From: Microthyrium microscopicum
Lineage: Eukaryota
Reading direction: 5' to 3'
Assembly (NCBI GenBank): GCA_010405405.1
Contig: MU004236.1
Coordinates: 260,576-324,575 of the forward strand
DNA: 64,000 nucleotides
The translations under genes and the position numbers were made by a program. Under the pieces are notes generated by a model. It worked only from the letters and a program-made list of their open reading frames with translations. It ran no database searches and was not told the DNA's origin. This document shows, one piece after another, positions 18,561 to 55,907 of the stretch. The stretch's first letter is position 1. Each line of letters begins with the position of its first letter.

Positions 18561-18639
18561 CTATAATACTATAGTACTAATAAGCTAGTAATATATAATT
18601 ATAAAAGAAATAACTAAGTCTAAAAACATAATTAATTTT

Positions 18640-19560: not shown

Positions 19561-20559
19561 AACTTAGAAAGGAAGAAGTAACTAAAACTATATAGATTTA
19601 AGATACTTTATACTCTAGAGGTAGACTATATAAACTACTAGAAACTTAAAGGCTACTATTTAGTAGCCTATTATGTAATATTAAAGAGCATAGATTAATA
19701 AGAAAAACTTAGTTAAAAGATATTATAAGTACCTTACTTAATAGGCATTAAAAAAGAGGGCTTAATATAGCTAAGGGACGCTATAATACTAGAGCTTATT
19801 AAGGGTAAAAATTAATTATAAAAACTTAAGAATATGTATTATATACGCCTATTATAAAACTATATAGAAAGTTAACTATATAAGGATAATAGCTATAAGC
19901 CTCTAAGAAGGAGAAGATTAATAAAAACTTATTAAACTATAATAGTAAAACTTAATAATAAGGTAATACTAAATAGAAATAGGCGCTAAAAAGCTAGATC
20001 TAACTTATCCTAAGGGACGCTATAGCTTTAAGTAATTAGGTAATAGATAAGCCCTAAAAGGAAAACTAGTAATAGGGATAGTATTAAGGATTAAGATCTT
20101 AGCGCGTAGTATAGAATCTATATAATATATAGTATACTTAAGCTATATAGGGCCCCTAGTAGTTAGTAACTACCTATTACCTACTATATTAACTTACTAA
20201 CTAGAATTTCTTTAATAAGCTTTATAGTTTATAGAGAGATAATATAAGTCCTTCTATTTAGAAGTAGTAGACTAAGAGGGTGTTATAATAATACTAAAAC
20301 GAGGCTGCTAAAAGGCAACTAAAGGAACACTATAGGTTTCCCTATAGGAGGTTTTTCTAAAAGTAAGAGTAGCGTCTACATAGCTCATTAGTATAGCTAA
20401 AAGACAATAAACAAGATTCATTATTATAGTTTACTAGGATTTAATAATAGGGTCTTTCTTTTTAATATTCTTTAGCTATACTATAAGTATAATAAAAGCT
20501 AGTAATATATAAATAGCTTAAAAGTATACTAGTATAACGTAGCCTTTATAGACTACTTT

Positions 20560-23050: not shown

Positions 23051-23365
23051 GTAGATAGTAAGTAGAGAGAATATAGAAACGCTTCTATAGATTATTAATA
23101 GAAGAACATAATAGAGTAAATACTTTAACTACTTTATACTCTTTATTTTAGTAAACGATACTAAAAAGGCGCTTATTTAATTAGGTATTTATAGCTTTGC
23201 TAGTACCTTCTATAAGAATCTAAATAGCGCTAATTCTAACTAAGAATAGTACTATTAATTTATTATTATTATTTAGTAGATTTAAGTATAACTTTAGCTA
23301 GTAATAATCTAGTAATATATAATAAACACATAGAGTTATTTTTTAGTATAAAGGTATATAAATTA

Positions 23366-23587: not shown

Positions 23588-23681
23588 CTATAAATAGTTA
23601 ATTATAAACTAAAACTAACTTACTAGCTTATAATAGCTATATTTATTAGTATAATATAGTATAAATATTATCTTATTCTCT

Positions 23682-23756
23682 NNNNNNNNNNNNNNNNNNN
23701 NNNNNNNNNNNNNNNNNNNNNNNNNNNNNNNNNNNNNNNNNNNNNNNNNNNNNNNN
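23682..23756. other. Assembly gap (75 N)
   Basis: Run of N. Confidence 1.
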
Positions 23757-24008
23757 CTATAGTTTTTATTAAAAAATAATTAAGTTTAGTATAAAAACTA
23801 GTATTTACTATTATACTATTATAATAGTAATTATAATAGTTTTTACTAGAGTAGTATTATTAAATACTAGTATTAGAATAAAGTAATCTTAGAGCATACT
23901 AGATAGTAGTATAGTAGAATAGCGCTAAAATTTTCTCGTACTAGTATTAGAATAGAGTAGACTAGACTAATAATAGAGTAGTTTATACTAAGTAGTTTAC
24001 CAACCCTG
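23757..24008. mobile_element. Terminus of a probable hAT-like DNA transposon
   Basis: The AT block ends at GTTTACCAACCCTG (reverse complement CAGGGTTGGTAAAC, a hAT-like start). Subterminal direct repeat TACTAGTATTAGAATA at 23865-23880 and 23939-23954. The partner end is not visible. Confidence 0.5.
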
Positions 24009-36967: not shown

Positions 36968-38403
36968 ATGGCGGCTGACTCCATTGCCCTTGCTGTAACT
37001 GAAGCCTTTGCTCGCTTACCCAAGAGATACAAGCCAGGACTTAGAAGCAACGGAGTGCACGAATGGATTCCCTTAGCAGGTATTGTTTTAGAGAAAGGTA
37101 ACAAGATGTGTTGAAGCAAATTGCTCGTCCTCTTGATGCTAACTAAGTCCTTCTAGAAGGTCTACCGCTATACTGCATATCCGCTTGGTAGATACTCTAC
37201 GTTTTGTAGGCTCCTTTGGCGATATTTTCTAACCTTTTTCCTAGTACTGGTTCAAAATGTCAGGCTCAAGATCGAATTCAGATTAGTAATGGCAACATTA
37301 TTCATGATTCACACGCGGAAGTTCTAGCCATACGAGCATTCAACTATTGGTTGATACATCAATGTGCTGATCTCGCCCGGAGCCTCGAGAACAGCTCCTT
37401 GTATCTGAAACGACGAGAAAATAGCCATGTTACCAAATTTTCACCACAGCCTTTCACGATACGCGCTGACGTAAAGATTCATTTGTATTGCTCAGAGTCT
37501 CCGTGTGGCGACGCAAGCTTGGAGCTCTCACTGGAAAGACAGGAAGATAGCACTCCTTGGGGAGAAGGTCCCGAGCGAGGTCCAGAAAATCTCCTTGGAC
37601 ACAGCCATTTTGGTGAAGTCGGGGTCGTTAGACGCAAGCCGGGTAAGTTCTATTGCATTTAACTTGACAGTTCAAAGCACACACTGTCGAGGTATCTAAG
37701 GCGTGCTCTTTACGTCGCATGGTTGCCGCTCCTTTGGTTGACTGACTGATCATATTCATTAGGTCGATCGGACTCACCAAATTGTCTTAGCAAGTCATGT
37801 ACGGATAAACTGGCTATGCACCAGTGTACTTCATTGATCAACGCAGCTGCGGCACCTTTGATCCACCCTGAAAATGCGTACCTTCATACTGTTGTGCTAC
37901 CCACAAGTAGTAAACTAGATTCCTGTACAAGAGCATTCAGTCAGCAAGGAAGAATGAGTCCTATTGCAGAAAGTTCCAAGCTCAACTGGCCACTATCCTT
38001 TGCATTCAAGCCTTTCAGGATTGTGCTCACAACCTTAGATTTTGAGTTCTCTCGAGCTGATCCGAAGGTCAAATATACGGCTTGCAATCGCACTGCAATT
38101 TATTCACCGCTTTTCCAAGAAGCGATCATCAATGGCATGGTTCAAGGTTATAAAGCTGGTAGCACATCTATCGATGCGATCAGTCGATTGTCGCGCCGAC
38201 GCATGTGGGAGGCGGCGATAAGAGTCGCAGAGCAGACATACGCTTCTTCGCTTCTCTCGATGATTCAGCAACCGTTGTATCACGAGTTTAAAACGATTCC
38301 AATTTTTGGCGCTGCGCGGAAACAAGTTAAAAGCGATGTTATCAGAACCTTGGGCTATTGGCCACGAAACGAAGGGGATGACTTTTTTACAAGAGAAGAG
38401 TGA
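36968..38403 (+). CDS. TAD1: tRNA-specific adenosine deaminase 1 (ADAT1/Tad1, A37 of tRNA-Ala)
   Basis: Exons 36968-37097, 37157-37187, 37245-37642, 37763-38403. Motifs TGSKC, HDSHAE, SPCGDAS, RRKPGRSDS, SKSCTDKL; no dsRBD. Confidence 0.93.
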
Positions 38404-38896
38404 CAAAGGATAAAATAGCTCACGCTTTATCCCTTTTAAGCGTCGAAAGGTTAGTAGTAAGTCGATAACTTACTTTAGTATATTTTTACTATATTAATAC
38501 CTAAATTATTTAAGAATCATTTCCTCTTAGGACTATACGGCTAGTACTATAGTTAAATACAAGTACGGAAGCGCATTATAGCCTACTTAGTAATATTAAG
38601 AAAAACTAAAAACTAAAGATTAGTATATAAATAGATCTATATAAATAATTTTATTTTATTTCTAAAATATATATTTTAATTATTTCTAATATAATATTAT
38701 AAAACTTATATTTTTAACTTTCTTTTAGCTTTTTTAAAAATACTTTTAAAGTACTTTTAGTTAATAATATTTACTATATTATAACTATAAAATAAAAATT
38801 ACTTTTTAGTAAAAGTATATTTAAGAAATTAAAAAGAAGAATTTTCTTTTATTAATTTAGTAGAAGCTCTACTATATTAGTAGCTTACTTTATTAT

Positions 38897-39256
38897 TATT
38901 AGGAATTAAATCTAACGAACTCTCTAAGATAGGCATTATAGCCTAAGTGCTTTAGCCTAATAGCTATTAGAAGCTAGTAGAGCTACTTCTTTAGCTTTAG
39001 TATATTCTATAGTTAAGAGAACTAATAAGTTCCTAACTATTATAATTAGTAGCTAAGCGTATTTCTAAGGTATCTTAGCTTATAAATAAACTACTCTAGC
39101 TTAAAGAGAAACCTTAGAGGTTCCTAAGTAATAAGATAAAGGCTAAGGAATTTCCTAGTAATTCTTTAATAATTACTCCTATTCCTATTTCTATATACCT
39201 AATCTATTAAGTATCTTATAATCTTCTTATTTACTCTATAACCTTAATCTTTAATA
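38897..39256 (+). repeat. 5' LTR of element D
   Basis: Direct repeat of 54966-55325. Confidence 0.93.
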
Positions 39257-40998
39257 TTATAATTACTTCTTACTAATAGAGTACCTATAAAGCTTTTCCT
39301 TTAAAATATTATAATTAGTTATAAGTAATAAACTAATAAAACCTAAGGATAAGGCTCTTAGAGTAAAACTAGCTAGACTAAATCTAGTTATACTAAATAT
39401 AGCTATACTAACTTTAGTAAGACTAAGTAGCCTTATAAGTAATTTTATTAATATAGAATAAGCTTATTTAGAACTAGTAGTAAATATAAAAAAGACGCTA
39501 GAATAGCTATAAGTTAAAATATAGTAAATACGTAATATATTTAAAATTAAATAACTTAAGGTAATAAAAGTAGCCTATAAATATAGAGAATTCTACTTAG
39601 TTAAATAAATTAATAAATAAGGTTAATATAATACTAGCTTAGCTATTTTAGCCTATATTAAATATAATAGCTCTAAATTAGCTTATAGTAGTAATAAACT
39701 ATAAATATATAAAGCTAAAAGTTTATAAAAGTATAAGGATTAGGTCTTTAATATAACTAATATGCTTACTATAAAGAAATATAAGAAGGACCTATATTTA
39801 GTAATCCTTTAAGCTTATAATTACCTTAATAAGAAGGTTATATAACCTACTTAGAATAATTATATTAATTTCTAGACCTAGTTAGTTAAACTAGATTAAT
39901 ATAAACCTATATAGACCTTTATAGAATAATAGGCCTTTAAACTTCTTAGTCTACTTATTAAGAAATATTATAAAGCCTTTTAGAGCCTTTTAACTACTAT
40001 AATAGAAAAAAAGACCTTCTAAGAATACTTTAATAAGCTTATATCTCTTTTTTATAAGTATAAGATTAATAATATATTAATTTACTTATTATTCTTTAAT
40101 AATAAACTATCTACTTATCTTAGAAATAATATAATCTTTAATTTAAACTATATAGTTAAGATAACTAAAGAAGCTTTATCTTAATATATTTTAAAATACT
40201 TAAGACTTATTAATAACTAGAAGATACTAACTACTTTTAAGAAAAATATTAGGAATAGTAAATCCTCTAAATAGTATTTAATATCTATAAATTTAAAGGA
40301 TAAGACTTAATAAAGTTCTTAAAAAGATAAGTTAAAGAAGTTTAGATTAAGCCCTTCTAATAGAGCTTTAAAACTAAATAAACTAAAGAGTAACGTAACG
40401 CCTAGAGTTAAATAGCTATTTCTTAGTAATTCTAGTAAAGATAAGTACTAAAATTATAATAAAGTAGGCTATATAGCTTATAAGTGCCTTAACCTAAAGC
40501 TAAAAGAAATTAAAAGAAAAGACTAAGCTATAAGGTAGCTAATTAGAATCTTATAGCTTCTATTATAAATAATTTAGTTCTTAACCTTTTTAATAACTTC
40601 TATAAAGTTATTATTACTTAAGTCTTAAAAGTAATAAGGAATAAGAAGATTCTAAATAAAAAGGTATACTAATTAAAAAAATTACGTTAAATTATTTTAT
40701 AAGAGACTACTTAGAATTAAATAAGCTAAGATTATATATTATAAAGCGTAATAATAAATAGTAAAGCCTATTTTAATATTATAGACTATACTTTAGCTAA
40801 GAAGCTTTAATTAGAGATATATTATTTCTTAGAGAAGTTAACTAAGTACTTAAATAGTATACTTATAGCTATTTATAGAGTAGTAACTACTAAAGTAATA
40901 ATAGTTAACTCTAATAGGATCCTAAAGACTAATAAGGTATTATTTTATATTATAGACTTATTATATTATATAATTATTATAAGGATACCTTAGCTTAA

Positions 40999-41221
40999 TG
41001 TAAGGAATCCTTACAGGTTTAGTATTGTAGTGTTTAGATGCTAAGATCTAATCCTATAGATAAGATCTCTTTATCCCATTTAGGGTTAGTATGTCTAAGA
41101 ATATCCTAGGCTCCTACTTCTTTATATCTATAGCTATATCTCTAGATCTCTTCTCTCTATACTTAGATCCTACAATACTAGCTACTTTCTACTTACCTAT
41201 TACGCCTATTAGCTCCTTATA
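40999..41221 (+). repeat. 5' LTR of element C
   Basis: TGTAAGG start; direct repeat of 48495-48717. Confidence 0.95.
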
Positions 41222-44200
41222 TAATCTAAGTACCTCTATATTAAATTTTATGCTCTACGTATATTTTATATATTATTAATAAACGCGTAGAGGCGTTTAA
41301 TAATTCCTATTAAATTACTATAGTTATACTATAAATCTAACTAATTAGTATTTAGCAATACTATCCTTAATTAAGATTAGCATTATTAAAGGTACTAACA
41401 AATTTATAAATACTAACTAGAGTAACATAAATTTAGTATCGTTTACTAGAATAAAGACTACTTAAAGGCCTAAGCTTTGCCTTATAGTATTCTTCTTAGA
41501 TCTATAAAGGCGTTTATACTACTTCCTTTCTACTAACTATAAATTATACTTACCTTATTCTTTATTAATCTATATTTATTAAATCTATTAAATTAGTTCT
41601 AATTTATTAAGAAACACTATATTATTTAGCTGCGTATTACTATAAGTAAGGCGCTACTTATTTCTAGTCTTAAACTAGCCTTCTTAAGCAATTCTTATAT
41701 TACTTATAAACGTAGTAGCGTTAGTATTTAAAGCTATTTAGTTTTACTTTATTATAGCAAAGATAGCTACTTTGTTAAGAAGCTAGTCGTCCTAAATATA
41801 GGAACTAATTAATAGTCTATTATTACGTTAATGCTATAGTAAGAGAGTATTCTAGTAGTTAAATTTATTAAAAAGTTATCTTTATTACTTAAAGTAGCTT
41901 TAGATAATAAAGACGAAGAATTCCTTTATTAGAATATTTAAGTTAGTATTAATATTTAATAACCTCATAAGATTATTACTAAACTATTAACTATAGTATC
42001 TATTATGCTAGTAAGTATAATAAAAGAGCTAGGATTAAAAGGTAAAGAGGTATTAACCTTTAGTGCTATCGTTAGTAATTTACTAGATAAAGGTATATTA
42101 GAAGTAAGATTACTTATTAATATTTACTGCTAGTTAGAATTACTAATACGTAAAAAAAAACCTTATAACGTTTCTATATTATTTCTATTTTACCTACTTT
42201 TAGAACTAGTAGACCTTAATAGTAAAGTTGCCTTACTTACTAGTATAAAGCTTTTATTTATATAAGTATTATATAGAGTAGGACTAGAGGTAAGAAAGTA
42301 GATATTAGTAGTTCTTTAGGACAATCCTAATAATTTTGCTACTCTCTAGAAATATTATATATTAATATCTAATAGTAAGTATCTAGATTAATATATTAAG
42401 TTTATAGAAGAAGATTAATTCTTTAAATAACTATATACTACGTTAGTAATTAATTAAACTATAGTATTACGTTACTAGTCTACTTAAAAACTTTAAGATT
42501 AGCTAGTAGAAAAACTTATAGACGCTAACGTAGAAGTAAGTTAATTAAGTAAGTTAGTAGATATGCTATAGGAAGAGATAGCTACTTATTAGTAGATAAT
42601 AATAAATCTTAAAGCGCTTACTAGCTAAATTTACTATAACTATAAGTTGGCGCTAACTACTACTTATTTAAATAAATAAGCTACTCTTACTAAATTAGTA
42701 AAGAAGCGTAATACTAATCTATAATATTATAAGTTAGTTATTAACCTTTATTATTAAATCTAAGAACTTAAGAATAGACTTTAGACAAATTTAAACTAAG
42801 CCTACGTTAATCTAAATAATTTAGAAGATAATATCTTTTTAGGTTGCTCTATATTATAAGTAACGTATTTAGTAGTTTTATACTTATAGCTTTAAGTTTA
42901 AAGAATACGCTATATCTTATTATTATTAGTAGCTAATAGTAGCTTCTTAGTAATACTTACAAAGTTTAAAGAACTTAGTAATTTTAAAAGTAAATTTATA
43001 TACTATAAATAGTAGAAGAAGAAGATATTAGATATACTTCTTAATAAGAATATATACTTTTACGTCCCTACTAAAAAGAAGAAGATTAAGTTTATTTATA
43101 TTTATTATACTAGCTCTATCTATAGTATTATAGTTATACGTAAAGGTCGTAAGTTAAAGAATCTTTATAGTACTATAAAAGAAATATAGGTAGACTTAGA
43201 TAAATATTATTGCTCTAAGAACGCTTTTAAGGATGCTAAGATATAGTTAAAGTCCTTAGATATTAAAATAAAAGATATAGAAGGTCTTTAAGCCTTTATT
43301 AGCTACTTCTTAATAAATTTAGTAAATATAGAACTATTTAAGCATAAGAAGATTATTAAATTATAAGATCTTATTAATTATAAGTTTATAAACCTACTAG
43401 TAGGCTAGCATTTTAGTAGCTTTATTATATTTTATGCTTAACTTTACTTAGTTATATGCTAAATTAACTATAAATCTATAGCTATAAATAATAACTCTTA
43501 TAGCTATAATAATAATTAGTTTACTAATAAAGAGGCCTAAAATAATAAAACTAATAATATTAATCGTTCTATAGACGTCTTTAATGCTTTAAAAATAGAT
43601 AAACGTTACGTCTATTATAATTAAAAGGATTATTACTACTTTAATAAGACTACTCTATATAAAGATTAGAAACCTTTATCTAATAATAAGATTAAAGCCT
43701 TAGTTATATCTTTAGTAGTAATATTTATAAAAGTTTAAAAAGAATAGTAACCCTCTATAGAGGATATTACTAAGGATAATAACTATTAGTCTTTAAATTA
43801 AACGTTTCTTCGCTAAGTTATAAAGAGGAGCTAAATAAGACTAAAGCGTATAATAAAAAAAAGAAACGCACTTTTAATACTATAACTAAGCGTATAAAGG
43901 AAATATTTCGTTAATATAATAAAGAATAGCGCTAAAATACTAAAAAAGCTAAAGAGATATTTTATTAAGTAAAAGAAGACTATAAGAATATTAAAGAAAA
44001 AGCTTAAGAGAAGACTAAAAAGATACTTAGTTACTTTTACTAGTATATTTAGCGCCTTAAGTATAAAGATACTATTTATAAAGGATATATCTCTTTAGTA
44101 TATTTATATACTATTTATATCTTACTAGCCTTTATTATATTAGTAGCATAGCTTTAAGATATTAAAAAGAAAGATTCTATTATTAGATTATAATAAACTA

Positions 44201-47200
44201 TTATTAGCTTAGTATTTATACTATAGCGTTTAACCTATTCTAATACTAGTATTTTAATTAATACTAGTAGTAGTATAATAAGAATTATTAACTCTTATTA
44301 TCTTTAATAATATAATATTTCTACTTTTTAACTTATATATCTATACTTAGTAATACTTACTAATAGTAAGTTAGTATTTATAATTAATAAAGCTACTATT
44401 CTTAACCTACGTATTAGATACTATGTTAAGTAGATTAGCTATTTCGTTATAGAAGTAGCCTCTTATAATTTAATCTTAAGAGTACTTTAGCTAAATTAAT
44501 ATAAAGTTAACCTATATAGAGGTTTAAGAATATTAACCTTCTATAGTATAAGATATATTATAAATTATATTATATCGTAACGTCTAATTACTATAAACTT
44601 AAAAGAACGATTTATAAACTTAGAATTACCTAAAGAATTAAATATTATTTTTATATCTATAGTAACGTTTAAGAAACTAATAAAGCGTAAAGACGCTATA
44701 GTTAATATATTTTAGCTTAAAGATTTTAATAATAAAAAAGAAAAGAAACCTTCTAATAGCAATAAAGATAATAATAATAAATTTACTATAAACCTTACTA
44801 TATATACTATATTAGAAGAAGATTATCTTAAATAGTAAGATAAGTAAGATTGCTCTTACTTATTAAAAAAGGAAATCTTAAAACTTATTTTAGAACGTTT
44901 CTACTAATATTTTAAAGTCTTTAATCTAAAGCGTTTAGATATTCTTATGCCTTACTATAGTAAATATAACTACGCTATTAACTTTATTTCTAATGCCAAA
45001 ATTCTAAAACGCTAACTTATATTAATGTTACTAAAATAAGCCTTAGTTATTAAATAATATATTAAGAGTCTACTTTAGCACGGTTTTACTATAAGTTTAA
45101 AATCTTAATATACTATATTTATGCTTTATATAAGCAAGCTAGAAGGAGATATCTATATCTATATTAATTATTGTGAGTTAAATAATATTACTATTAAAAA
45201 TAGTAATATTCTATTGCTTATTAGTAAGATACTTATACGCTTTATATAGGCAAAGTATTACTTTAAGTTTAACGTTATTATTGCCTTTAAATATATTTAT
45301 ATTAAATTTAAAAATAAATATAAGATAGCATTCTTAATACATTACGGCCTATTTAAGTTTAAAGTACTATCTTTTAGCCTTATAGGGGGACTAGGGACAT
45401 TTTAAGCGTACGTTAATTATATACTAATATAGTTTTTAAATAATTTTGTAACTATTTATTTAGATAACATTCTAGTATTTAGCAAGACATTAGAAGAATA
45501 TAACGCCTATATATATTTAGTACTAAACGTATTAGAATATATAGGTTTATTCCTTAATATTAAAAAGTTAGAGTTTGCTATCTAAGAAATAAAATACCTT
45601 AGTCTAATTATTATTATAGAAGGTATTAAGATAGACCTCTTAAAGGTTAATACTATAATTAACTAAGAATAACTAAGTTATTTTAAGGATATATAGGCAT
45701 TTCTTAGATTTATTAACTTTTACTAACGATTTATCTTTAATTACTCTACTATAGTAGTATCGTTAATAAATCTTACTTAGAAGGATGCTCTAGCTATATT
45801 CCTCTAGGACCCTAATAAGCTTAAGGAATAAGCTTTTAAGAAGCTAAAAGTAGACTTTACTAATATACTAATTCTATAATACTTTAATTATACTAAGGAA
45901 ACTTAGATAGAGATAAACGTATTAGATTAAGCTTACGCTACTATATTATTATAAAAAGATGCAAATAGTAATCTAAGACTAGTTACCTTTCTTTCTAAGA
46001 AAATATTACTAGTAGAATATAATTATAATATTTATAATAAAGAACTACTTACTATTGCTTACGTCTTTAAGAAGTAAGAACCTAAGTTATTTAGTACTAA
46101 AAATATTATAAAAGTATTTTTAGATTATTAGAATCTTTAAACCTTTATAAAGACTAAGAAGCTTATATACTATTAAATACGCTAGACTAAATTCTTATTA
46201 TAATTCTACTTTTTAATTAAATACTACCTTAATAAGAATAATAGCAAAGCTAACGCTTTAATCTAAAGATTATAAGACGTACTATAAAGTAATAAAGACC
46301 TATAAGTTAAGCAATAGTATTAACTATTCTTATTCTTATATTAATTTAGTACTAAATAAGCTATTAAGCTAGCTATAATCCTTATTAACCTAATTACTTT
46401 ATTCTTTATATAGATAGCTATACTTATGTTAAATAAGCTAAATATTACTATAGTAGGAGAGTCTAATTTAGAACTTATTATAAAAAGCTCTTAGAATAGA
46501 GCTCTAGCTAGTTTAGATAATTTACTACTAGTTAATACTAAATCTTTAGATTTTAACTTAAAGTAGTTTATATAGGAAGTAATAAAGGTAAGTAAGAAAG
46601 ATAAGTTACTAATCATAATTTAACTAGTAAAGGCATAGAAAGACTACTTCTTATTCTTTAAAGTACTAAATTAAGATTAAATTAAATTAATAGATTATAA
46701 GGCTCTACTAAATAGTACTATCCTTTATTAATAAAAGTTATTTATACTAACAATATATTTACGAAATAAAGTAATAAAATAGGCATATTAATATAAAGTT
46801 ATAGGCTATAGAGGAACTATAACGACCTACTACTACCTTTAATAAGATTACTAGTAGCTAAGAATATTAGAATATATTAAGAAATATATTAAAGGTTATT
46901 ACTATATCTTTTTAAAGCTAGTACGCTAAAAGAAGTAAAAGCTTCTTTACTTATTTCCTCTACTAGATTAAGCTTAGTTTAATATCTCTATAGACTTTAC
47001 TATCTTACTACTACGCTATATCTATTAAAGTATAGTTTACTAGTATATTATAGTTATTATTAATCGTTTAATATAATTATAATAGTTTATTACCCTTTTA
47101 AGTCTTTTAATAGAAATAATAGTTATAGTATTTATTAATTAAGTATAAAAGCTATATAGTTAGCTAGACTCTATTCTTTTAGATTAAGGAACTTAATTTA

Positions 47201-48494
47201 TATCTACCTTTTAAAGTTACTTATATAAACGTATAAGCATTATATTAAGATTAAGTACTATATAATATTTAGAGTCTAATAATATTACTAAAATAACTAT
47301 TACTACCTTAAAATAGTATCTTAGATTCTTTATTAATTAGAATTAGAATAATTAGGTAGCCCTATTACTATTTACTAAATTTATAGTAAATTTTGCTATA
47401 AATACTACTACTAGTTTTATACTTTTTAAGGTATAAAATAGTTTTCTATTAAAATTAGGACTTAAGTCTACTTACTATTTACTACCTAAAGCATTATATG
47501 CTTTTATTATAGTACGTAAAGAAGTTATTACTACTAATTAAGTATAGAATAGTTAAGAGAAGCTTTATAAGTTTTTAAAGGAGTAATTAGTATAGGCTTA
47601 GGCTTAATAAAAACTCTACGCTAATAAGTATTAACGTTTAGTACTAGATCTTTATTCTAAAGACTAGATATAACTTAACGTTTAAAATTATAATATAACT
47701 TACTCTTTAAAAATACTTAATAGCAAAAGCGCTAGTTTCTTTAAGGTATTATACAAGATTAATAAAGTAACCTATAAATTAGATCTTTCTAAATTAATAA
47801 AAATATACCTAATATTCTATACCTAGCTACTATATTTAATTAATAATAATATATACTTATTATAGGAATTAAACCTACCCTTAGTAGTTATTAGTAAAAA
47901 AAAAAGCAAAGAAGAATAGCTTATTAATACTATTATTAATAGTAAATAAGATAGTAGGGGTAAGAATAAGGTACTTAAATATAAGATTAAATAGATAGGA
48001 TTTTATAATAAAACTTAGTAGCCTTAGAAGAATACTATTAACGTACTTAATACTATATTAAAATTCTATAAGCTTTATCCTTAGAAGCCTAGTCTATACC
48101 CTTCTTAATCTTTACTAGTAAATAAAGTTAAAGAAGAAGATTATAATGCTAATAAACTACTTACGAATTAAGATTATATAGTATAAAAAGCGTTATATTT
48201 ATTTATTTTTACTAATAGTATTATACCCTTAGTTTAGTTTTTAATTTACGCTATTAAAGGGATTATAGAATACTATAAACTAGCTTAAATAGATATTCTC
48301 TTCTTTATTAAATAGATTTAGATAGTACTAAGGTAAGTAGATAGTATATTATTATATTCCTTAGTAGTAATATATATAAAGGAGTTTTATATTTATATAG
48401 ACTAGCTTAGCCTAGCCTAGATTAGCCTAGACTAGACTAGAATAAATTAGATTAAGATATAGCCTATAAGGTCTATTTTAGAAGAGAAAAGTTA

Positions 48495-48717
48495 TATAAG
48501 GAATCCTTATAGGTTTAGTATTATAGTATTTAGATACTAAGATCTAATCCTATAGATAAGATCTTTTTATCCTATTTAGGGTTAGTATGTCTAAGGATAT
48601 CCTAGGCTCCTACTTCTTTATATCCGTAGCTATATCTCTAGATCTCTTCTTTCTATACTTAGATCCTATAATACTAGCTACTTTCTGCTTACTTATCGCG
48701 CCCATTAGCTCCTCATA
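48495..48717 (+). repeat. 3' LTR of element C
   Basis: Direct repeat of 40999-41221; preceded by a purine tract. Confidence 0.95.
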
Positions 48718-51700
48718 CTTAAAGATTAGAACTCCTTACTAAACTTTAAGGCTAAGACTTTATCTTTTATTTATCTAAAGGATAACTACTATAATAAGAT
48801 TAGTTCTATTTCTCTAAAGAAGTTACTCTAATTAGGTTAAGATAGATTTACTTAGCTCTTTAAGTATCTAGTAGGTTTATTAAACTATATTAGCTTATAA
48901 AACTTACTATATTACTATAAGGAGCTTATAGAGGCTTTTAGTAAGAATAAAGTATAAGATTTAATAAAATATAGTTTATAGGACTTAGTTATTAACTTTA
49001 AGCTAGGTATAAGTATACTCTATTAGCTTATTTATAGTTTATTAAAAGTAGAACTAGTTATTTTATATAAATACCTTAAAAGAGATTTTAAGAAAAGATT
49101 TATTTATAAATCTTAGTTTTCTACTAGAGCTCTAATTATCTTTATAAAGAAAAAGAATAATACTTTATATTTATATATAGACTATAGAGGCTTAAATAAT
49201 ATTATAGTTAAGAACTACTATACTTTACTATTAATTAAAAAGTTATTAGACTAACTATTAAGAGCTAAGCTCTTTATAAGCCTAGACTTTTATAAAGTAT
49301 ACTATTATATCTATATTTATATTAGTAATAAGTAGAAGATAATATTCTAAACTAAATATAAGTTCTTTAAGTATTAAGTAATATTTTTTAGGTTTACTAA
49401 TACTTTTACTATTTTTTAAGTATATATTAACTAAGCTCTATATAGCTTTATTAATATAACTTATATTATTTATCTTAATAATATTCTTATCTTCTCTAAG
49501 AATAAAAAAGATTATATTAGATATATAAAGAAGGTACTTAAAAGACTTATTAAGTTTAAGTTATATATTAAGCTATTAAAGTATAGCTTTTATATAGACT
49601 AAATTAAGTACTTTAAGTATATTATAACTTTAGATAGTATTATAATAAAATTAAAATAAATTATAATAGTTATAGATTAGCTAATATTATATAATATATA
49701 TTAAGTAAGAAAGTTTATTAGCTTTATAAATTACTATTAATATTTTATTACTAACTTCTCTTATATTACTTCTTTATTAAACTCTTTAACTAAGAAGCTT
49801 CTAGAATAAGCCCTAAAAGGCTAATAGCTATATAATAAAGAATTAGTTTCTATTAACTTCTCTCCTAAAGCTATTTAATCCTTTAATAATCTAAAGGCTA
49901 TTTTTATATATATACTAATTTTTATTTATTATAATTTTATATTAGAGACTTATTTAGAGATAGATACCTTTAAGTAAGTAATCTATAGTATTTTAAGTTA
50001 AAAATAAATTAAGCTAGGCTAAGAAAGCTAATAGTAACTTATAGTATTCTACTTAAGGAAGTTATTAGAACCTAAGAGTTACTATAAGACTCTATAGTAA
50101 AAATTCCTAGCTATTATTAACTCTATAAGAGTCTTTTATAAGTATCTATATAATATTCTAAAGTTCTTAGTCTTAATAGATTATATAAACTTTTATTTAC
50201 TTAATACGTCTTAAAATATTTTTACTATATATATAAGATAAGTAAATTTCCTTATTAAGTTTAAGTTTAATATTAAGTACTATTTAAGGAAGATAAATTC
50301 TATAGATAGACTCTTATAAAGACTAGACTACGTCTCCTTAAGTAATATAAAGTAGAAAAGAATTATAGATATCTTATTAAACCTTATTTAAAATAAACTA
50401 TAACTATTTAAGGTTCTTAAGCTTAATAAAGACCTAACTAGATTTATTAATATTTTAATTATATTTATTAGTACCTTATTATAGTACTTAAGAAATAATT
50501 CTTAAGAAATAGATATTATTACTATATTAAATATATTTAATAGCTTCTTTACTAAGCTAATAGAAGATAAATAAACCTATTTATAGATAGAGGTTACTAT
50601 AAAGAATAGTAAAGTCTAAATTCTTTAATATTTCTATAATAATTTTCTAAAAGAAGGCTATAAAGGCTAACATAAGACGTTAAAGAAGATTTAATACTAT
50701 TATACTTAGAATAATATTAATAAAGATATTTAAGAGTACTATATAGCTTATTTAGAGTATAAATAAAATACGTCTATTAAATAAGGCTAAAATAGACTTC
50801 TTTTATTCTTATTAGTACTAATAGCTTCTTAAGAAGATATTATAGTTAATTTTATTACTAACTTACTTTTAAGTATTTTTTAAGGATAATTATATAACTC
50901 TATTATAGTAATTATTTATAAGCTAACTAAAATAGCTTATTACGTACTTTATTATAAAGATATAAATGTAAATAATTTTATTAAGCTTTTCTTATATAAG
51001 GTAGTATAACTTTATAGCGTACTAAATATAATTATATTTAATAAAGGCTCTATATTTATCTTTAAGTTCTAGAATATATTTCTTTACTACTTAGAGATCT
51101 AATAGAAGCTATTTACTATATTCTAACTTTAAATAGATAGATAAATAGAGTATTAAAACTAAGAGATTAAGTACTATTTATATATTTATTATAGCTAAAA
51201 ATAGGATAATTAAGCTAAAAAGCTTAATTTTACTAAGTTTATATATAATAATAGTATATATAGCTTAACTAGTATTATTTTATTTATAGTATATATAAAT
51301 AGATACCTATATATACTAGAAGTATCTAAAGAGTATTTAATAAGTACTACTCTTAATATAAAGAAACTAATAAAATATATTCTATCTCTTTAAAGAGCTC
51401 TTTAGACTTATTTAGAGAATATTTAAACTCTATAAGCTAAATACTATAATAAAAGCTATAAGGACGTTACCTTAAAGATAAATAACTAAGTTCTACTTAA
51501 TATAAAGAATATTAGAATAGCTAAGTCTAAAAAGAAACTAGATATTAAGTATATAGGCCTTTTTAAAGTAATAAAGATTATTAATTATAATATATATTAT
51601 ATTAATCTACCTAAGGGCGCTTTAATTTATAACGTCTTTTATATTTTCTTATTATAATAATATATACTTAATATATACTTTTTATAGTAAATAGTCTTAC

Positions 51701-52660
51701 CTTAAAAAACCTTAGATTTTAAAGAGACTAATTACTATAAGGTTAAAAGCGTAATTAAATATAAGGTTAATAAAGATAGTACTTATTATTATAAAGTAAA
51801 GTAGAAGAACTACTTTATATCTAAAATAAGCTAGAAACCTACTAGTAACTTCTTCTTAATTACGCTAAAGCGCTATTAAAAGAAATTAAAGAAAAAGAAT
51901 ATCTCTTTAGCTAAATTAGCTTTAATAGAAGTAACTAAATATAAATTAAAATAACTTAACTTAAATAAACCTTATCTAAAGCTTAAGAAGTTAAGAAGAC
52001 GTTTAAAAAAGTCTTTAGTACCTATTAAACTTATATTAGCTAAGAAAGAGCTAAGTAGACTAAAATAATTATAATAAGACTTAAAATAAGTCTCTTTTTA
52101 TAAAGGAAATAAGTATAAAAGTATAATTACTTTATAGTATATATAAATATATAATAATAATTTACTTTACTTATAATTAAGATAAGTCTATATAAATAAA
52201 ACTAAATAGTACTTAAATAGTACTATTATAATACTTTAGAATAAATAGATTTCTATAGATATATATATAAATATAGTCTAAATAGAAAAGACTTAGAGAA
52301 AATTTAGAACTAGATATAGAATTAATTTTAAATTTAAACTTAAAACTATTAGTATTACTTTAGCTTTACTTATTAATCCTTAAAGGGGTACTCTTTAAAT
52401 ACCTTAAAATAATAATTTTAAGTTTATAGAGATATACTCCTAAGTACTATTTAGGTTTATAAAAAAGAACTTAGAAATTTAAGAAAGTATTTTATTAAAA
52501 GAAATTATCTTATACTATTTATATAAATTAATTTAAATAAAACTTAATAGCTACTAAGTACTAATAAATAGCTTATAATAAATCTAAAATATAACTAACT
52601 TTATTTATTAGATACTAAATATATTAACTTAATACTAGATATATCTACTAGATATTATAT

Positions 52661-54560
52661 CTACTCTTTAGACTCTTTAGTTTCTAAATTATTATTATTA
52701 GAATTAATCTAACCTATTATAACTAGATAGTAATAAAGAACTATCTACTTACTTAAACTAAGCTTATACTTATTAATCTAGCTCTAAAGGATTATAAACT
52801 AACTTATATTAAAAGCCTTCTTTTTCTTTTTAGTACTATTAGCCTATTAAGAAGTAAGTATCTTTATAACGTTAGTAAGCTTACTAATTTAATATAATAA
52901 AGTACTTATAACCTAAAATAGAGTTAGTTAGAATCTAAGTAATATAATTAGAGTACTTATATCCTCTTAGCTACTATTTATAAGTAATTTAAATTTATAA
53001 TAATAAATATAAAGATTATTATAGCGCTTAATATAAATAGTATTAATAGTAGCTCTAAGTAAAGCTACTTTAGAGTAATAGATAGCCTTCTTAGCCTTAA
53101 GAATATCTTTATTATTTTTATAATATACTAGTATTATATAGATATTATTATATTTACTTTTAGCAATACTAGAATATAAAGGAAAGATATTATTTATAGT
53201 ATTAATATAAATATACTTATTTATATTAGTTTAAACCTAAGTATAATAAGAAGGTTTACTTATATTTAAATAGCCTTTATAACGTCTTTATTAGTAATAT
53301 AAACTACCTTTTTAGTATAAAGGAGCTAACTTATATTATACTTACTTAAATTACTATTATAAGTTTACTAATAAAGTATATAAATCTTTATTATATTATA
53401 ATACTTTATAATAAGGTTCTTAATAATACCCTTCTTATAAAGAATAACTTAAGAAATAATTAGTAATAATTAGATTTAAATTAAATTAATTAAGAATAAC
53501 TTACTTTAAGATACTACTAATAAAACTTTATAATCTTATAAGTTATATAGTAGTAACTATTTTAAACCTTAAAGGCTAATACGTAGTTCTTATAAGCTAT
53601 ATAGTACTAATCCTTTAGATTAATATATAAGAAGGTCTTAGTATATACTTTAGTATATTACTAATATAAATTAAGTAAGAAAAACTATTTAATAATTAAC
53701 TTAGTTTTATTCTTATATAAAATAGACTTATCTATATTAGATAGTTTTATCTTATTATTATTAAAGTTATATAGAAAATATTTACTACTTAACTAATTAT
53801 AATTAATTAATACGTTATAAATAAGGAAGATTTAGTATAATTTAAACTAAGCCTAAGCCTTATTAGTATATATAATACTATTAATATATATTTACTTTAT
53901 ATTAGGCTAAGAAGGTTTAGACTTATTATTATAATTACGCTTAGAAATCTTTTTTTTTTCTTAGCCTAGATAGTATCCTTTTTAATTTCCTTAGATTTAG
54001 AAGGCTTTAAAAAGAAGTAGCCTAAACTTAATAATTTAATATAATTATTATTAGTATTAATTTTAGTACTATTAATAAATTTAACCTAGTTAGTTACCTT
54101 TTTAGTAATATTAATATTAGTAGAATTAGTTAGTTTTATAACGCTAATAGTTAGAGTCTTTAATAAATTAATAGTATCTTTAAAAACCTTAGAGGTATTA
54201 AATAGAGATAAACTAGATCTATTTAAAGCCTTATTAGCTTCTACTTTATTCTTTATAGTAGTTATTAGAGAGAATAGGTATAAAAGAGTATAAAGTATAT
54301 TAAGTAGATTTATAAGGAAGCTACTAGTAAAATATTAAGACTACTAGCTAAGACTTATTCTTATACTATAGTTCTATTTATAAAGATTAGCTTTACTTAG
54401 TTAATTAGGATTTACTTAAGTATATACCTTAATTCTATAAAAGTAGAATAAAGAAGAATTAGAAGAAGTACGTAATTATAAAATTAAATATACCTTATTT
54501 AATACTTTTTTACTTAATTAGGTTAGTAGAGAGTAAATATTTATTTTATTAAGTACTTCT
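52661..54560 (-). pseudogene. Antisense multi-intron passenger gene relic in the 3' region of Gypsy D
   Basis: Minus-strand introns 54493-54435, 54427-54374 (7-nt micro-exon between them), 53504-53448 and 52960-52913. Long nearly stop-free frames (54250-53900; 53215-52961). Acidic C-terminus ending TAG at 52663-52661. 5' end approximate. Confidence 0.7.
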
Positions 54561-54965
54561 TATTAAAAAAAGCTTTAATATTAATCCTTACTATAAGTAA
54601 AGATTCTAAAGAAGGAAGTTACTTTTAGTAAGTAATAACTTATAGATTAAGTAGACTTAAGGTAATAGCCTAAGGAAACTTAAAAACGTCTAAGTCTCTA
54701 ATAAACTTAGATAAACCTAAATAAGTACCTAATAATAATATTTAGCTTTATAAATTATTATTTAAGGAGTACTCTTTTAAGTAATATTTAAAACTAATAA
54801 TAAGTTTACTAAGATTTACTAAGATTATTATCTAACTAGCTAGATAGTAGCTAAGTAGTTTATATTATTATAATATAATATATTCTAAAGTATATTAGTA
54901 CTATTAGAATATAGTTAATCTTTTAGAGACTTATAAGGACGTTTAGATCCTTATTAAGGAGATAA

Positions 54966-55325
54966 TATTAGGAATTAAACCTAATAAATTCTTTAAGATA
55001 AGCATTATAGCCTAAGTACCTTAGCTTAATAGTTATTAGAAGCTAATAAAGCTACTTCTTTAGTTTTAGTATATTCTATAGTTAAGAGAATTAATAGGTT
55101 TCTAATTATTATAATTAGTAGCTAAATATACCTTTAAGGTATTTTAGCTTATAGATAGACTACTCTAGCTTAGAGAAGAACCTTAAAGGTTCTTAGGTAA
55201 TAAGATAGAGGCTAAGGAATTCCTTAGTAGTTCTTTAGTAATTACTCTTATTCCTATTTCTATATACCTAATTTATTAAGTATTTTATAACCTTCTTACT
55301 TACTCTATAACTCTAATCTCTAATA
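54966..55325 (+). repeat. 3' LTR of element D
   Basis: Direct repeat of 38897-39256; preceded by a degenerate purine tract. Confidence 0.93.
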
Positions 55326-55907
55326 ATTATATTAGTAATAATTTTACTAAATATTTATTATTATTTTATTTTAGTAATATTTTTACTAATTTAGTAATAT
55401 TCTTATTAAATTATAACTAATAAAAAAATAGAATATTAATTTAAAAACTTTAGAAAGAAGCCCTTAGTCTATAAAATAAAATAGCTTATTTATATAATTT
55501 AAAAAGGGTAACAATAAGAGTATAGGAAAGGTAGAAACTATTAAAAATACATATTTTAGATGTAAGTTTTTAGTGTTCTCTAATGTTGCCGGGTAGGCCG
55601 CAATGCGCTTCCGTAGACGACCATCGGATGAGGGACCTTTGGAGCGATCATCAACACATGCAGAAGTCGACCCATGTATGACGGCTCTCGGACCGATAAC
55701 GCGCGTTTCTTGATCTGCATGATGCGCCAACCACAACCTCTCTTATCCTCACTCAGTCATCCTGCAGGCAGGATCCTCATTCTTTAACTACCAAATACAC
55801 GACAAACCTACCGCTTAAGAAGCTTCCTATTCGTAATGAATCCTTAAAGAGGTCGCTATCAGGCTCAGCCAGCCATCCGTTTGGCAGCCCCTCGGGCCCC
55901 GGCCGAC

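What the first reader, a model, noticed from the sequence alone, without database searches (positions are those of the whole stretch)
52661..54560. Gypsy element D carries an antisense, multi-intron passenger gene between pol and the 3' LTR
Seen: D has ~2.9 kb between the end of pol (~52070) and the 3' LTR, against a few hundred bp in A, B and C. On the minus strand this region has fungal-sized introns with donor, branch and acceptor: 54493-54435, 54427-54374 (7-nt micro-exon between), 53504-53448 (perfect GTAAGT) and 52960-52913 (CTAAC branch). Between them run frames that are almost stop-free despite extreme AT content: about 2 stops in ~115 codons from 54250, and 1 stop in ~85 codons from 53215. 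The relic ends in an acidic tail that de-RIPs to DSDDDDSETEESEE. Established: introns antisense to the genomic RNA survive retrotransposition, and extra antisense ORFs are known in some plant Ty3/Gypsy lineages. Inference: a roughly 500-aa accessory protein, expressed from its own promoter or the 3' LTR, that travels with the element. Its function is unknown and I cannot assign a family. I am not aware of a description of this in fungal chromoviruses.
Basis: partly seen in the sequence, partly recalled or inferred. Interest (0 to 1): 0.82.

Follow-up and report, generated by a model that had tools for sequence, protein, structure and literature searches.

The report
Dead antisense gene inside fungal retrotransposon
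A heavily mutated fungal retrotransposon carries, between its polymerase gene and its end repeat, the wreck of a roughly 550-codon gene on the opposite strand; this layout is already known in plants and in the grey-mould fungus, so it is a modest addition and not a new kind of thing.

Summary
Element D is one complete Ty3/Gypsy insertion: LTRs at 38897-39256 and 54966-55325, a 5-bp duplication ATTAT, and another gypsy nested at 40999-48717. It has 2.9 kb between pol and its 3' LTR, against about 95-230 bp in three other elements.

The minus strand of that stretch holds a real coding relic at 54316-52664. A codon model trained on other elements' RIPped pol scores it 47.4 bits, against 1.3 +/- 2.5 in 300 simulations. 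Its stop density equals that of pol.

The frame changes three times. One change sits at the only A10 run (an indel). One fits a 71-nt GTAAGT intron. One is ambiguous. "Multi-intron" is therefore weakly supported.

The stretch is RIP-saturated exactly like D's own genes and unlike the younger elements, so it shared D's history as repeated DNA.

No homolog was found, but D's own gag is equally undetectable.

The main rival is an early nested transposon. An intact relative (L002) shows this very layout, but no convincing terminal repeats exist here.

The novelty claim fails: Boty of Botrytis carries the antisense gene brtn (2011).

The parts
38892..38896 (.). Left copy of D's 5-bp target-site duplication (ATTAT)
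   Evidence: identical 5 bases at 38892-38896 and 55326-55330.
38897..39256 (+). 5' LTR of element D (360 bp; ends read TATTAG...CTAATA, the RIP products of TG...CA ends)
   Evidence: 87-89% identical to 54966-55325.
39257..40993 (+). D's gag/protease region, cut by the nested insertion
   Evidence: plus-strand coding signal at 39729-40976 (about 40 bits); 0 Pfam families in any plus-strand frame.
40999..48717 (+). Younger gypsy element nested in D (224-bp LTRs 92% identical; TSD CTTAA)
   Evidence: Residual CpA+TpG is 10.45 per kb, against 0.6 in D's pol.
48718..52051 (+). D's pol: RT, RNase H, integrase, Tf2-type SH3 and a chromodomain-like C-terminus
   Evidence: RVT_1, RT_RNaseH(_2), SH3_Tf2-1, and Integrase_H2C2 (weak); one frame throughout; the C-terminus aligns to four intact chromodomain-bearing pol ends (z = 5.0-6.1).
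52052..52663 (.). Non-coding spacer between the converging ends of pol and the antisense relic; its last three bases, 52661-52663, are the relic's final stop codon (TAG)
   Evidence: no coding signal on either strand. GC is 0.156.
52379..52401 (.). Left copy of a 23-nt near-palindromic motif that brackets the relic
   Evidence: 20 of 23 bases identical to the inverted copy at 54759-54781, and all 3 differences are transitions. 2 of 60 null comparisons scored as high.
52664..53238 (-). Coding relic, segment 4 (frame -0); ends in a stop at 52663-52661 after an Asn/Lys/Glu/Ser-rich tail
   Evidence: includes the 87-codon open run.
53239..53433 (-). Coding relic, segment 3 (frame -1); its 3' boundary is either a 1-nt loss near 53238 or an intron ending at 53237
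53434..53504 (-). Best intron candidate: 71 nt, perfect GTAAGT donor, TACTAAT branch-like site, joins frame -2 to frame -1
   Evidence: One search places the frame switch at 53503; 20.1 bits against 18.0 for a 1-nt loss. The acceptor is AAG, which is atypical.
53505..53960 (-). Coding relic, segment 2 (frame -2)
53950..53959 (.). A10/T10 homopolymer at the first frame change
   Evidence: the only homopolymer of 8 or more bases in 48718-55000; a 1-nt loss here scores 41.5 bits, against 38.5 for the best intron.
53961..54316 (-). Coding relic, segment 1 (frame -0)
   Evidence: includes the 82-codon open run.
54317..54953 (.).
   Evidence: no coding signal. for the motif.
54954..54965 (+). Polypurine-tract-like run abutting the 3' LTR
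54966..55325 (+). 3' LTR of element D
55326..55330 (.). Right copy of the target-site duplication (ATTAT)

Best explanation
The 2.9 kb between pol and the 3' LTR of element D holds the RIP-killed relic of one protein-coding gene of about 550 codons on the minus strand (54316-52664).

Most likely it was part of D's own repeated unit. That would make it an accessory or passenger gene of the 'antisense additional ORF between pol and 3' LTR' type known from plant Ty3/Gypsy elements and from Boty/brtn of Botrytis.

Inferred working, when it was alive:
- It was transcribed from its own promoter in the roughly 640 bp between its start and the polypurine tract, converging on pol.
- Being antisense to the genomic RNA, any intron in it (best candidate 53504-53434) would pass unspliced through reverse transcription.
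- The protein, or the antisense RNA itself, acted on the element's own cycle.

Today it is dead. It has 40 or more in-frame stops, at least one 1-nt frameshift, and every CpA/TpG but one removed.

Shown: the coding relic, its strand, its place inside one element, and its shared RIP history.
Inferred: that it belonged to the family and not to this one copy, the intron, the promoter and any function.
For: 1. Coding signal. A codon model trained only on other elements' RIPped pol recovers D's pol frame as a control. On the minus strand it gives an ordered path of frames: -0, then -2, then -1, then -0. The Viterbi score is 47.4 bits on the minus strand and 22.5 on the plus strand (pol: 68.4 sense, 28.8 antisense). 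In 300 Markov simulations the mean was 1.3, SD 2.5, maximum 15.5. Elsewhere in the RIPped DNA, 8 windows that I read as sense strands score 36-116 and the other 10 score 0.7-12. A second model trained on D's pol alone gives the same segments.

2. Stop density. 46 of 587 codons, against 86 of 1134 in pol.

3. Location. It lies inside one insertion with 360-bp LTRs, a perfect 5-bp TSD and a polypurine-like tract.

4. Same RIP history as D. Residual CpA+TpG per kb is 0.34 here, against 0.60 in D's pol and 1.15 in D's gag, but 10.45 in the nested gypsy and 17.6 in elements A and B. Fisher p = 3e-10 against the nested element and p = 1.0 against D's pol.

5. It was probably a RIP target itself. RIP fades within about 300-500 bp outside D, while the stretch is saturated 1.45 kb from either repeated flank.

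6. No sign of a separate insertion. It has no LTRs of its own, no convincing TIRs and no TSD. A positive control, L002's nested transposon, shows perfect 28-bp TIRs.

7. Precedent. Antisense ORFs at this position are known in plants and in Boty (PMC7264820, passages).
Against: - This is a single copy. Nothing else in the window resembles 48718-54965, and no other copy could be fetched.
- No homolog was found: 0 of 1.84 billion representatives at E <= 0.001, no Pfam family and no PDB sequence.
- There are three frame changes in 1.65 kb, against none in 3.3 kb of D's pol. That suggests a gene that was already decaying, or one of a different origin, unless two of the changes are introns.
- Among intact relatives, the identifiable large antisense ORFs downstream of pol were other transposable elements: DDE_3 in L002 and its relative in L039, Plavaka in L051, and RT in L080. 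The element-borne antisense ORFs were small (168-216 aa).
- A 23-nt near-palindromic pair brackets the relic (2 of 60 null comparisons were as good). These could be short terminal repeats.
- RIP can spread into unique DNA lying between repeats, so saturation does not strictly prove that the stretch was repeated.
Confidence: 0.5

Rival explanations
1. An unrelated transposable element (a DNA transposon, Crypton, LINE fragment or the like) inserted into D's short pol-LTR spacer soon after D arrived. It was then RIPped together with D. The relic would be its transposase or other element protein.
For: - D already holds one nested element.
- Intact relative L002 shows this exact layout: a 3.1-kb block with a 555-aa DDE_3 transposase, antisense and downstream of pol, with perfect 28-bp TIRs.
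- The relic's size (about 550 codons in 2.4-2.9 kb) fits such elements.
- A 23-nt inverted, near-palindromic pair at 52379-52401 and 54759-54781 brackets the relic.
- The excess of frame changes relative to pol fits a different origin.
- Pfam has little power here: D's own gag and the integrase core are not detected either.
Against: - The transition-blind TIR search found nothing beyond that 23-nt pair (null maximum 24; 2 of 60 reached 23), and the similarity stops at the motif.
- There is no TA or other duplication at its edges.
- RIP-aware alignment, which scores D's integrase at z = 80 against an intact relative, gives z = -0.7 against the DDE_3 transposase and z = 0.4 against Plavaka.
- No transposase, RT or recombinase family was found by Pfam.
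- The insertion would have had to land in a target of a few hundred bp without touching pol, the polypurine tract or the LTR.
- Its RIP level equals D's and not that of the later nested element.
Confidence: 0.28
2. A one-off capture of a host gene (transduction or template switch) by this particular copy or a small sub-lineage. That would make it a passenger with no role in the element.
For: - PMC7264820 (abstract and passages) notes that such captures occur and are then found in one or a few copies.
- The antisense orientation would let host introns survive.
- The frame changes fit a gene under no selection.
Against: - Saturating, uniform RIP implies that the stretch was repeated.
- No fungal protein matches it, although RIP would hide most matches.
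Confidence: 0.1
3. No gene at all: the open frames are a by-product of RIPped, TA-rich sequence, or the shadow of something on the plus strand.
For: - An 87-codon antisense shadow run exists elsewhere (44094-43834).
- The stop-excluded codon test was noisy.
- The plus strand of the stretch scores 22.4 bits, higher than the ten low-scoring (presumed antisense) windows at 0.7-12.
Against: - 47.4 bits against a simulation maximum of 15.5 (0 of 300).
- There are strong differences between the three frames of the same strand (for example +14 against -15 and -15).
- A second training set gives the same result.
- The minus-to-plus ratio matches pol's sense-to-antisense ratio.
Confidence: 0.07

Closest known systems
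[quoted passage not shown] 2011, Virology 417:248). The paper itself is not held; it is known to me only through citations in PMC7264820, PMC8365987, PMC4227169 and PMC5987419 (passages read).
   Same: A fungal Ty3/Gypsy element with a chromodomain-type pol. The extra gene lies between pol and the 3' LTR, antisense to gag-pol. The function is unknown.
   Different: The host here is not Botrytis or Sclerotinia: the best named relatives of a flanking gene are Pezizales and Dothideomycetes at 42-54% identity. No brtn sequence was available to compare. The relic here is dead and RIP-saturated. Presence in other copies is not shown.
Antisense additional ORFs between pol and the 3' LTR (aORF-3R) of plant Ty3/Gypsy elements: maize Grande gene23, rice RIRE2, Silene Retand, Phaseolus PvRetro13 (review PMC7264820; abstract and passages read)
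   Same: The position, the orientation, the lack of recognisable protein families, and the proposed own promoter.
   Different: A different kingdom and lineage. The plant ORFs are conserved across most copies and some are shown to be transcribed; neither could be tested here.
Zn2Cys6-type antisense ORFs found here in intact fungal gypsy elements (L064, L067, L071, L077, L078; 158 database relatives)
   Same: Antisense, inside the element, between pol and the 3' LTR.
   Different: Those are 168-216 aa with six invariant cysteines and a long helix. The relic here is about 550 codons, lacks the Cys (or RIP-derived Tyr) signature, and shows no RIP-aware similarity (z from -0.1 to 1.8).
Tc1/mariner-type DNA transposon nested in a gypsy element (L002:2493-5578; DDE_3 transposase of 555 aa)
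   Same: The size of the block and of the ORF, the antisense orientation, and the position downstream of pol.
   Different: L002's element has perfect 28-bp TIRs and a Pfam DDE_3 hit. The window's stretch has neither, and it shows no RIP-aware similarity to that transposase.

Membership tests
Antisense additional ORF between pol and 3' LTR of Ty3/Gypsy elements (aORF-3R; includes Boty brtn) | Lies inside one element, between the pol stop and the polypurine tract/3' LTR | tested here: met
   LTRs, TSD and polypurine-like tract. Pol ends at about 52051 and the relic spans 54316-52664.
Antisense additional ORF between pol and 3' LTR of Ty3/Gypsy elements (aORF-3R; includes Boty brtn) | Protein-coding on the strand opposite to gag-pol | tested here: met
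   Codon-model Viterbi score 47.4 bits on the minus strand against 22.5 on the plus strand; 0 of 300 simulations reached it.
Antisense additional ORF between pol and 3' LTR of Ty3/Gypsy elements (aORF-3R; includes Boty brtn) | Present in all or most copies of the element family | not testable with these tools
There is only indirect support from RIP saturation equal to D's own.
Antisense additional ORF between pol and 3' LTR of Ty3/Gypsy elements (aORF-3R; includes Boty brtn) | Transcribed from its own antisense promoter | not testable with these tools
   No RNA data could be examined.
Antisense additional ORF between pol and 3' LTR of Ty3/Gypsy elements (aORF-3R; includes Boty brtn) | Sequence homology to BRTN | not tested
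   No BRTN sequence was held. None of the 120 listed of the 158 Zn-cluster relatives bears that name.
Zn2Cys6-type antisense ORF of fungal gypsy elements (alignments A2, A3) | Six cysteines spaced C-X2-C-X6-C-X5-12-C-X2-C-X6-8-C (Tyr allowed after RIP) | tested here: not met
   0 hits in the minus-strand frames of 52000-55000. The single plus-strand hit is full of stops.
Zn2Cys6-type antisense ORF of fungal gypsy elements (alignments A2, A3) | Alignable to family members | tested here: not met
   RIP-aware alignment gave z = 1.8, 0.6, 0.2 and -0.1 against four members; the controls gave z = 56-80.
Nested DNA transposon (Tc1/mariner, Plavaka and the like) | Terminal inverted repeats at the ends of the inserted block | tested here: inconclusive
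   The best transition-blind inverted match is 23 nt; 2 of 60 null comparisons were as good. It is near-palindromic and the similarity does not extend.
Nested DNA transposon (Tc1/mariner, Plavaka and the like) | Target-site duplication flanking the block | tested here: not met
   The flanks of both candidate repeat pairs are not duplicated.
Nested DNA transposon (Tc1/mariner, Plavaka and the like) | Transposase domain | tested here: inconclusive
   No Pfam family and no RIP-aware similarity to the DDE_3 or Plavaka proteins held. However, Pfam also misses D's gag and integrase core, and other transposase families were not available for the RIP-aware test.
Spliced (multi-intron) fungal gene | Frame changes coincide with GT...AG introns of fungal size | tested here: inconclusive
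   1 of 3 frame changes fits a canonical donor (GTAAGT at 53504; 71 or 74 nt). One is better explained by a 1-nt loss at the A10 run, and one is a tie. Intron-like motifs occur by chance at 0.5-1.5 per kb. The loosest pattern is enriched on this strand (9 against about 2.9 expected).
Spliced (multi-intron) fungal gene | Junction reads in RNA | not testable with these tools
   No RNA data could be laid.
Chromovirus (chromodomain-bearing Ty3/Gypsy), for element D itself | RT, RNase H and integrase in gypsy order | tested here: met
Chromovirus (chromodomain-bearing Ty3/Gypsy), for element D itself | Chromodomain at the pol C-terminus | tested here: inconclusive
   No Pfam Chromo hit at E <= 1. 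RIP-aware alignment to four intact chromodomain-bearing pol ends gives z = 5.0-6.1, each above all 30 shuffles.

The most novel reading that the evidence does not exclude
Element D represents an undescribed chromovirus-type lineage, in a poorly sampled ascomycete, whose members all carry a large (about 550 aa), intron-bearing antisense accessory gene. That gene would be unrelated to the small Zn-cluster antisense genes of other fungal gypsy elements. It would be a further, independent acquisition of an antisense gene at the same position, pointing to a recurrent selective advantage of that slot.
Probability: 0.3. Interest if true: 0.5.

Novelty: new member of a known kind. Interest (0 to 1): 0.3.

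Why it matters
If the relic was a family-level gene, it adds a second, much larger type of antisense accessory gene to fungal Ty3/Gypsy elements. It would also strengthen the case that the slot between pol and the 3' LTR is a recurrent landing place for extra genes across kingdoms.

As it stands it is one dead, unidentifiable copy, so its own value is limited.

Two things may be more useful in practice:
- The method: a codon model trained on RIPped pol, plus RIP-aware alignment, recovers frames and homology in DNA of 18% GC.
- The side observation: many intact fungal gypsy elements encode a small Gal4-like Zn-cluster protein antisense to pol.

Tried and rejected
- Whole genome: none is held.
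No copy-number, variant or splice-junction evidence was therefore obtained.
- Sequencing runs: 6 listed, 5 holding part of the stretch, from 2 studies. No RNA holder is listed, and one run under another organism label holds a 0.23 share. None was laid, so none is used as evidence.
- Stop-excluded codon model: too noisy, even on its own training pol.
- phmmer of the frame -0 read-through (stops as X) against 1.84 billion representatives: 0 hits. Only segments 1 and 4 were in frame in that query.
- Pfam on all pieces: 0 families. In one search my first reference was one base out of frame.
- PDB sequences: 0 hits.
- Metagenome contigs with the relic as query: 590 pattern matches, none confirmed.
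- Viral contigs with P0004: none.
- tblastn of the relic against the window: only itself. The next hits (E = 6e-5 on the opposite strand of the same stretch, 7e-4 antisense to D's pol; 29-31% identity) were obtained with composition correction off, and I regard them as compositional.
- Pol search by shared words: only 9 hits, the best being P0004 at 26% identity. D's pol is equidistant from all 80 fetched loci at 22-26% identity, so D could not be placed.
- First two versions of the RIP-aware alignment: the controls failed. I had mis-framed the control pol sequence, and I also used a maximum-over-ancestors score that I judged too permissive and replaced. Those runs were discarded.
- Earlier notes of this scan: nothing.
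- The best plain inverted repeat (52116-52159 and 54863-54906; 44 nt, 70% complementary): rejected, because many of its mismatches are transversions, which RIP cannot make, and its flanks are not duplicated (sequence).
- Literature searches that found nothing: 'antisense ORF' + 'LTR retrotransposon' + 'fungi'; 'Zn2Cys6' + 'LTR retrotransposon' + 'antisense'. PMC3248453 has 0 occurrences of 'antisense' or 'additional ORF' in its main text, and PMC10799480 likewise.
- The supplements of PMC8365987 (its Figure S1, which draws brtn and other extra ORFs) were not seen.
Full report
**Setting.** The window has two AT-rich blocks (1-24000 and about 38400-55600, GC 0.18-0.31) between stretches of normal GC. 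CpA and TpG are almost gone from these blocks and TpA/ApT is 1.5-2.2, which is the signature of RIP. No whole genome is held for the window.

**Anatomy of element D.** A self-comparison of the window gave 15 repeat pairs. Two of them define a nested structure:
- An outer pair at 38894-39261 and 54963-55331 (87% identical).
- An inner pair at 40998-41221 and 48494-48717 (92% identical).

Alignment and motif search fix D's LTRs at 38897-39256 and 54966-55325. Their ends are the RIP products of TG...CA. A perfect 5-bp duplication (ATTAT) sits on both sides, and a purine-rich tract abuts the 3' LTR. The inner element has its own duplication, CTTAA. D is therefore one complete insertion of 8.7 kb, not counting the nested gypsy.

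Its plus-strand pol, with stops read as X, still matches RVT_1, the two RT-RNase H families, the Tf2-type SH3 domain and, weakly, the integrase zinc domain. Pfam finds no chromodomain. A RIP-aware alignment of the pol C-terminus to four intact chromodomain-bearing pol ends gives z = 5.0-6.1.

Pol's coding signal ends at about 52051. That leaves 2.9 kb before the 3' LTR. In elements A, B and the nested gypsy the corresponding gap is about 226, 200 and 94 bp.

**Is there a gene on the minus strand?**
- The minus frame that starts at 54421 has 46 stops in 587 codons, the same density as D's pol with 86 in 1134. The other five frames have 125-160 stops in about 1066 codons.
- Its two long open runs (82 and 87 codons) are in the same frame.
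- Runs alone are not proof: an 87-codon antisense shadow run exists inside the nested element, and a codon test that ignored stops was too noisy.
- I therefore trained a codon log-odds model on the sense frames of three other RIPped pols, against their five other frames. As a control it picks D's pol frame in nearly every window.
- On the minus strand of the stretch it gives an ordered signal of the same strength as pol: frame -0 (54316-53961), then -2 (53960-53503), then -1 (53460-53239), then -0 (53238-52666), with nothing beyond.
- The Viterbi score is 47.4 bits on the minus strand and 22.5 on the plus strand. Pol scores 68.4 sense and 28.8 antisense.
- 300 second-order Markov simulations gave 1.3 +/- 2.5, with a maximum of 15.5.
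- Other 3-kb windows of RIPped DNA fall into two groups: 36-116 (8 windows, read as sense strands of TE genes) and 0.7-12 (10 windows).
- A second model trained on D's pol alone reproduces the segments.

I regard the coding relic as real, with a probability of about 0.9.

**Introns or indels?** Each of the three frame changes is a step of -1.
- The first falls exactly at the only homopolymer of 8 or more bases in 6.3 kb, an A10 run. A 1-nt loss there scores 41.5 bits, against 38.5 for the best intron, which has a poor donor.
- The second falls at a perfect GTAAGT (53504). An intron of 71 nt (to 53434) or 74 nt (to 53431) restores the frame, contains a TACTAAT branch-like site, and scores 20.1 or 19.5 bits against 18.0 for a 1-nt loss.
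- The third falls at a TAG acceptor (53237), but the possible donors are poor. A 1-nt loss scores 36.6 against 34.7.

The 3' one (52960-52913) is in frame and cannot be tested.

Intron-like motifs occur by chance at 0.5-1.5 per kb per strand in control RIPped DNA. In fairness, the loosest pattern ([GA]TAAGT with a branch and acceptor) is enriched on this strand, at 9 against about 2.9 expected. I cannot say whether that reflects introns or Lys/Asn/Ser-rich codons.

Net result: one plausible intron, one indel and one undecided change. Three frame changes in 1.65 kb, against none in pol's 3.3 kb, is itself odd and counts somewhat against a gene that was kept intact by the element.

**What is it?**
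- Nothing matches. There are 0 proteins at E <= 0.001 among 1.84 billion representatives (segments 1 and 4 were in frame), no Pfam family for any piece, no PDB sequence, no relative in the metagenome contigs and no paralog in the window.
- This silence has little weight. D's own gag gives no Pfam family in any plus-strand frame, the integrase core is missed, and pol keeps only 26% identity to the best un-RIPped hit that the search recovered.

**Part of D or a later insertion?**
- No direct or inverted repeats with flanking duplications bound the stretch.
- RIP makes only transitions, so I repeated the search in purine/pyrimidine code. The best inverted match is 23 nt (52379-52401 and 54781-54759; 20 of 23 bases identical, all three differences transitions). 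Among 60 random RIPped segments, 2 scored as high. The motif is nearly palindromic, the similarity stops at its edges, and the flanks are not duplicated. It remains unexplained.
- RIP history is more telling. Residual CpA+TpG per kb is 0.34 in the stretch, 0.60 in D's pol and 1.15 in D's gag, but 10.45 in the nested gypsy and 17.6 in elements A and B. Fisher p = 3e-10 against the nested element and p = 1.0 against D's pol.
- Outside D the RIP signature vanishes within about 300 bp on the right and 500 bp on the left. Yet the stretch is saturated 1.45 kb from either repeated flank.
- The stretch therefore went through D's whole RIP history and was most likely itself repeated. That fits an integral part of a multi-copy element, or a very early nested repeat. 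It argues against a one-off capture of a single-copy gene.

**Intact relatives.**
- With P0004, the best un-RIPped pol hit, as probe, a metagenome scan kept 80 loci out of 592 confirmed matches.
- D's pol is equally distant from all of them (22-26% identity), so they are context and not close kin.
- Among the 22 loci with a usable LTR pair, the gap between pol homology and the LTR is in most cases a sense-strand extension of pol.
- In 4 of those 22 loci (L064, L067, L071, L078) it holds an antisense ORF of 187-216 aa, measured stop to stop. L077 carries a 98% identical copy of L078's ORF.
- Among 67 loci with enough downstream sequence, the identifiable large antisense ORFs were other mobile elements. 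These were a DDE_3 transposase of 555 aa in L002, inside a 3.1-kb block that interrupts the gypsy sequence and has perfect 28-bp TIRs; its relative in L039; a Plavaka transposase in L051; and an RT in L080. L044 (459 aa) and L024 (289 aa) have no family.
- This shows that the nested-transposon rival is realistic.
- A RIP-aware alignment (each codon weighted over its possible pre-RIP ancestors) scores D's integrase at z = 80 and RT at z = 56 against P0004. It gives z between -1.6 and 1.8 for the relic against all nine proteins tested, including the DDE_3, Plavaka and Zn-cluster proteins. Two earlier versions of this test were discarded because their controls failed.

**Comparison with what is known.**
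- The review PMC7264820 (abstract and passages read) describes antisense additional ORFs between pol and the 3' LTR in maize Grande, rice RIRE2, Silene Retand and Phaseolus PvRetro13. It says they are also present in Boty of Botrytis cinerea and Sclerotinia sclerotiorum, citing Zhao et al. 2011 for the gene brtn.
- That paper is not held.
- PMC8365987 (passages) places brtn in BcGypsy1 and mentions further extra ORFs in other BcGypsy families. Its supplementary figure was not seen.
- PMC5987419 (passage) reports a Monilinia transcript 63% identical to BRTN.
- The arrangement is therefore already described in fungi.
- The host here is a different, poorly sampled ascomycete. A flanking FAD-oxidase gene has its best named relatives in Pezizales and Dothideomycetes at 42-54% identity.

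My probabilities are:
- about 0.5 for a gene that belonged to D's repeated unit;
- about 0.28 for an early nested transposon;
- about 0.1 for a one-off capture;
- about 0.07 for no gene.

Interest is modest (0.3).

Noticed in passing
L064:6592-7239, L067:5412-5972, L071:4951-5565, L078:4986-5555 (all minus strand); L077:5360-5929: Intact fungal gypsy elements from metagenome contigs carry a conserved antisense ORF of 168-216 aa. It overlaps the end of pol by 32-83 nt and ends 121-697 nt before the 3' LTR.

Six cysteines are invariant, with the spacing C-X2-C-X6-C-X8-C-X2-C-X6-C; that this is the Zn2Cys6 spacing is from my recall. A profile search finds 158 relatives. Many are on 6-7 kb contigs, and the named ones come from Pseudogymnoascus, Exophiala, Stromatinia and Fonsecaea. 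6 of 30 members reach Pfam Zn_clus at E <= 0.01.

The AlphaFold model (mean pLDDT 80) has a small N-terminal domain followed by one long helix at residues 72-144. Ranks 1-21 of the 23 Foldseek matches, as far as they are listed, are Gal4-type Zn-cluster DNA-binding domains, but none has E <= 0.001.

Whether this family is the published brtn is not known. A search for 'Zn2Cys6' + 'LTR retrotransposon' + 'antisense' found no paper.
   Followed up: partly
window 52379-52401 and 54759-54781: Two copies of a 23-nt near-palindromic motif bracket the coding relic, 263 nt beyond its end and 443 nt before its start. They differ only by three transitions. Four other places in the window share only the motif's 14-nt core in purine/pyrimidine code and do not resemble the pair in actual bases. 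Possible readings are short terminal repeats, binding sites or chance (2 of 60 null comparisons scored as high).
   Followed up: partly
L002:2493-5578: A 3.1-kb DNA transposon is nested in a gypsy element downstream of pol. It has perfect 28-bp terminal inverted repeats and a 555-aa DDE_3 transposase. L039 holds a relative that is 40% identical.
   Followed up: partly
window 38397-38896: The 500 bp left of D's 5' LTR is also RIPped (GC 0.198, CpA/TpG index 0.15), although it lies outside the element. It is either RIP leakage or the remnant of a still older repeat.
   Followed up: no
window about 23680-23770: A translated run of X shows a run of N in the window. The assembly therefore has a gap, which makes a homopolymer error at the A10 run (53950-53959) conceivable.
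   Followed up: no
window 14246-23312: Further RIPped coding relics lie on both strands: plus strand 14246-18090, and minus strand 23312-20442 and 19039-18718. They are presumably two or more other retroelements and were not delimited.
   Followed up: no
L044:2164-3540 (minus strand): A 459-aa antisense ORF lies 516 nt downstream of pol in an intact gypsy locus. It has no Pfam family and no relative among the other 79 loci. Whether it lies inside the element is unknown, because no LTR pair is present on the contig.
   Followed up: no
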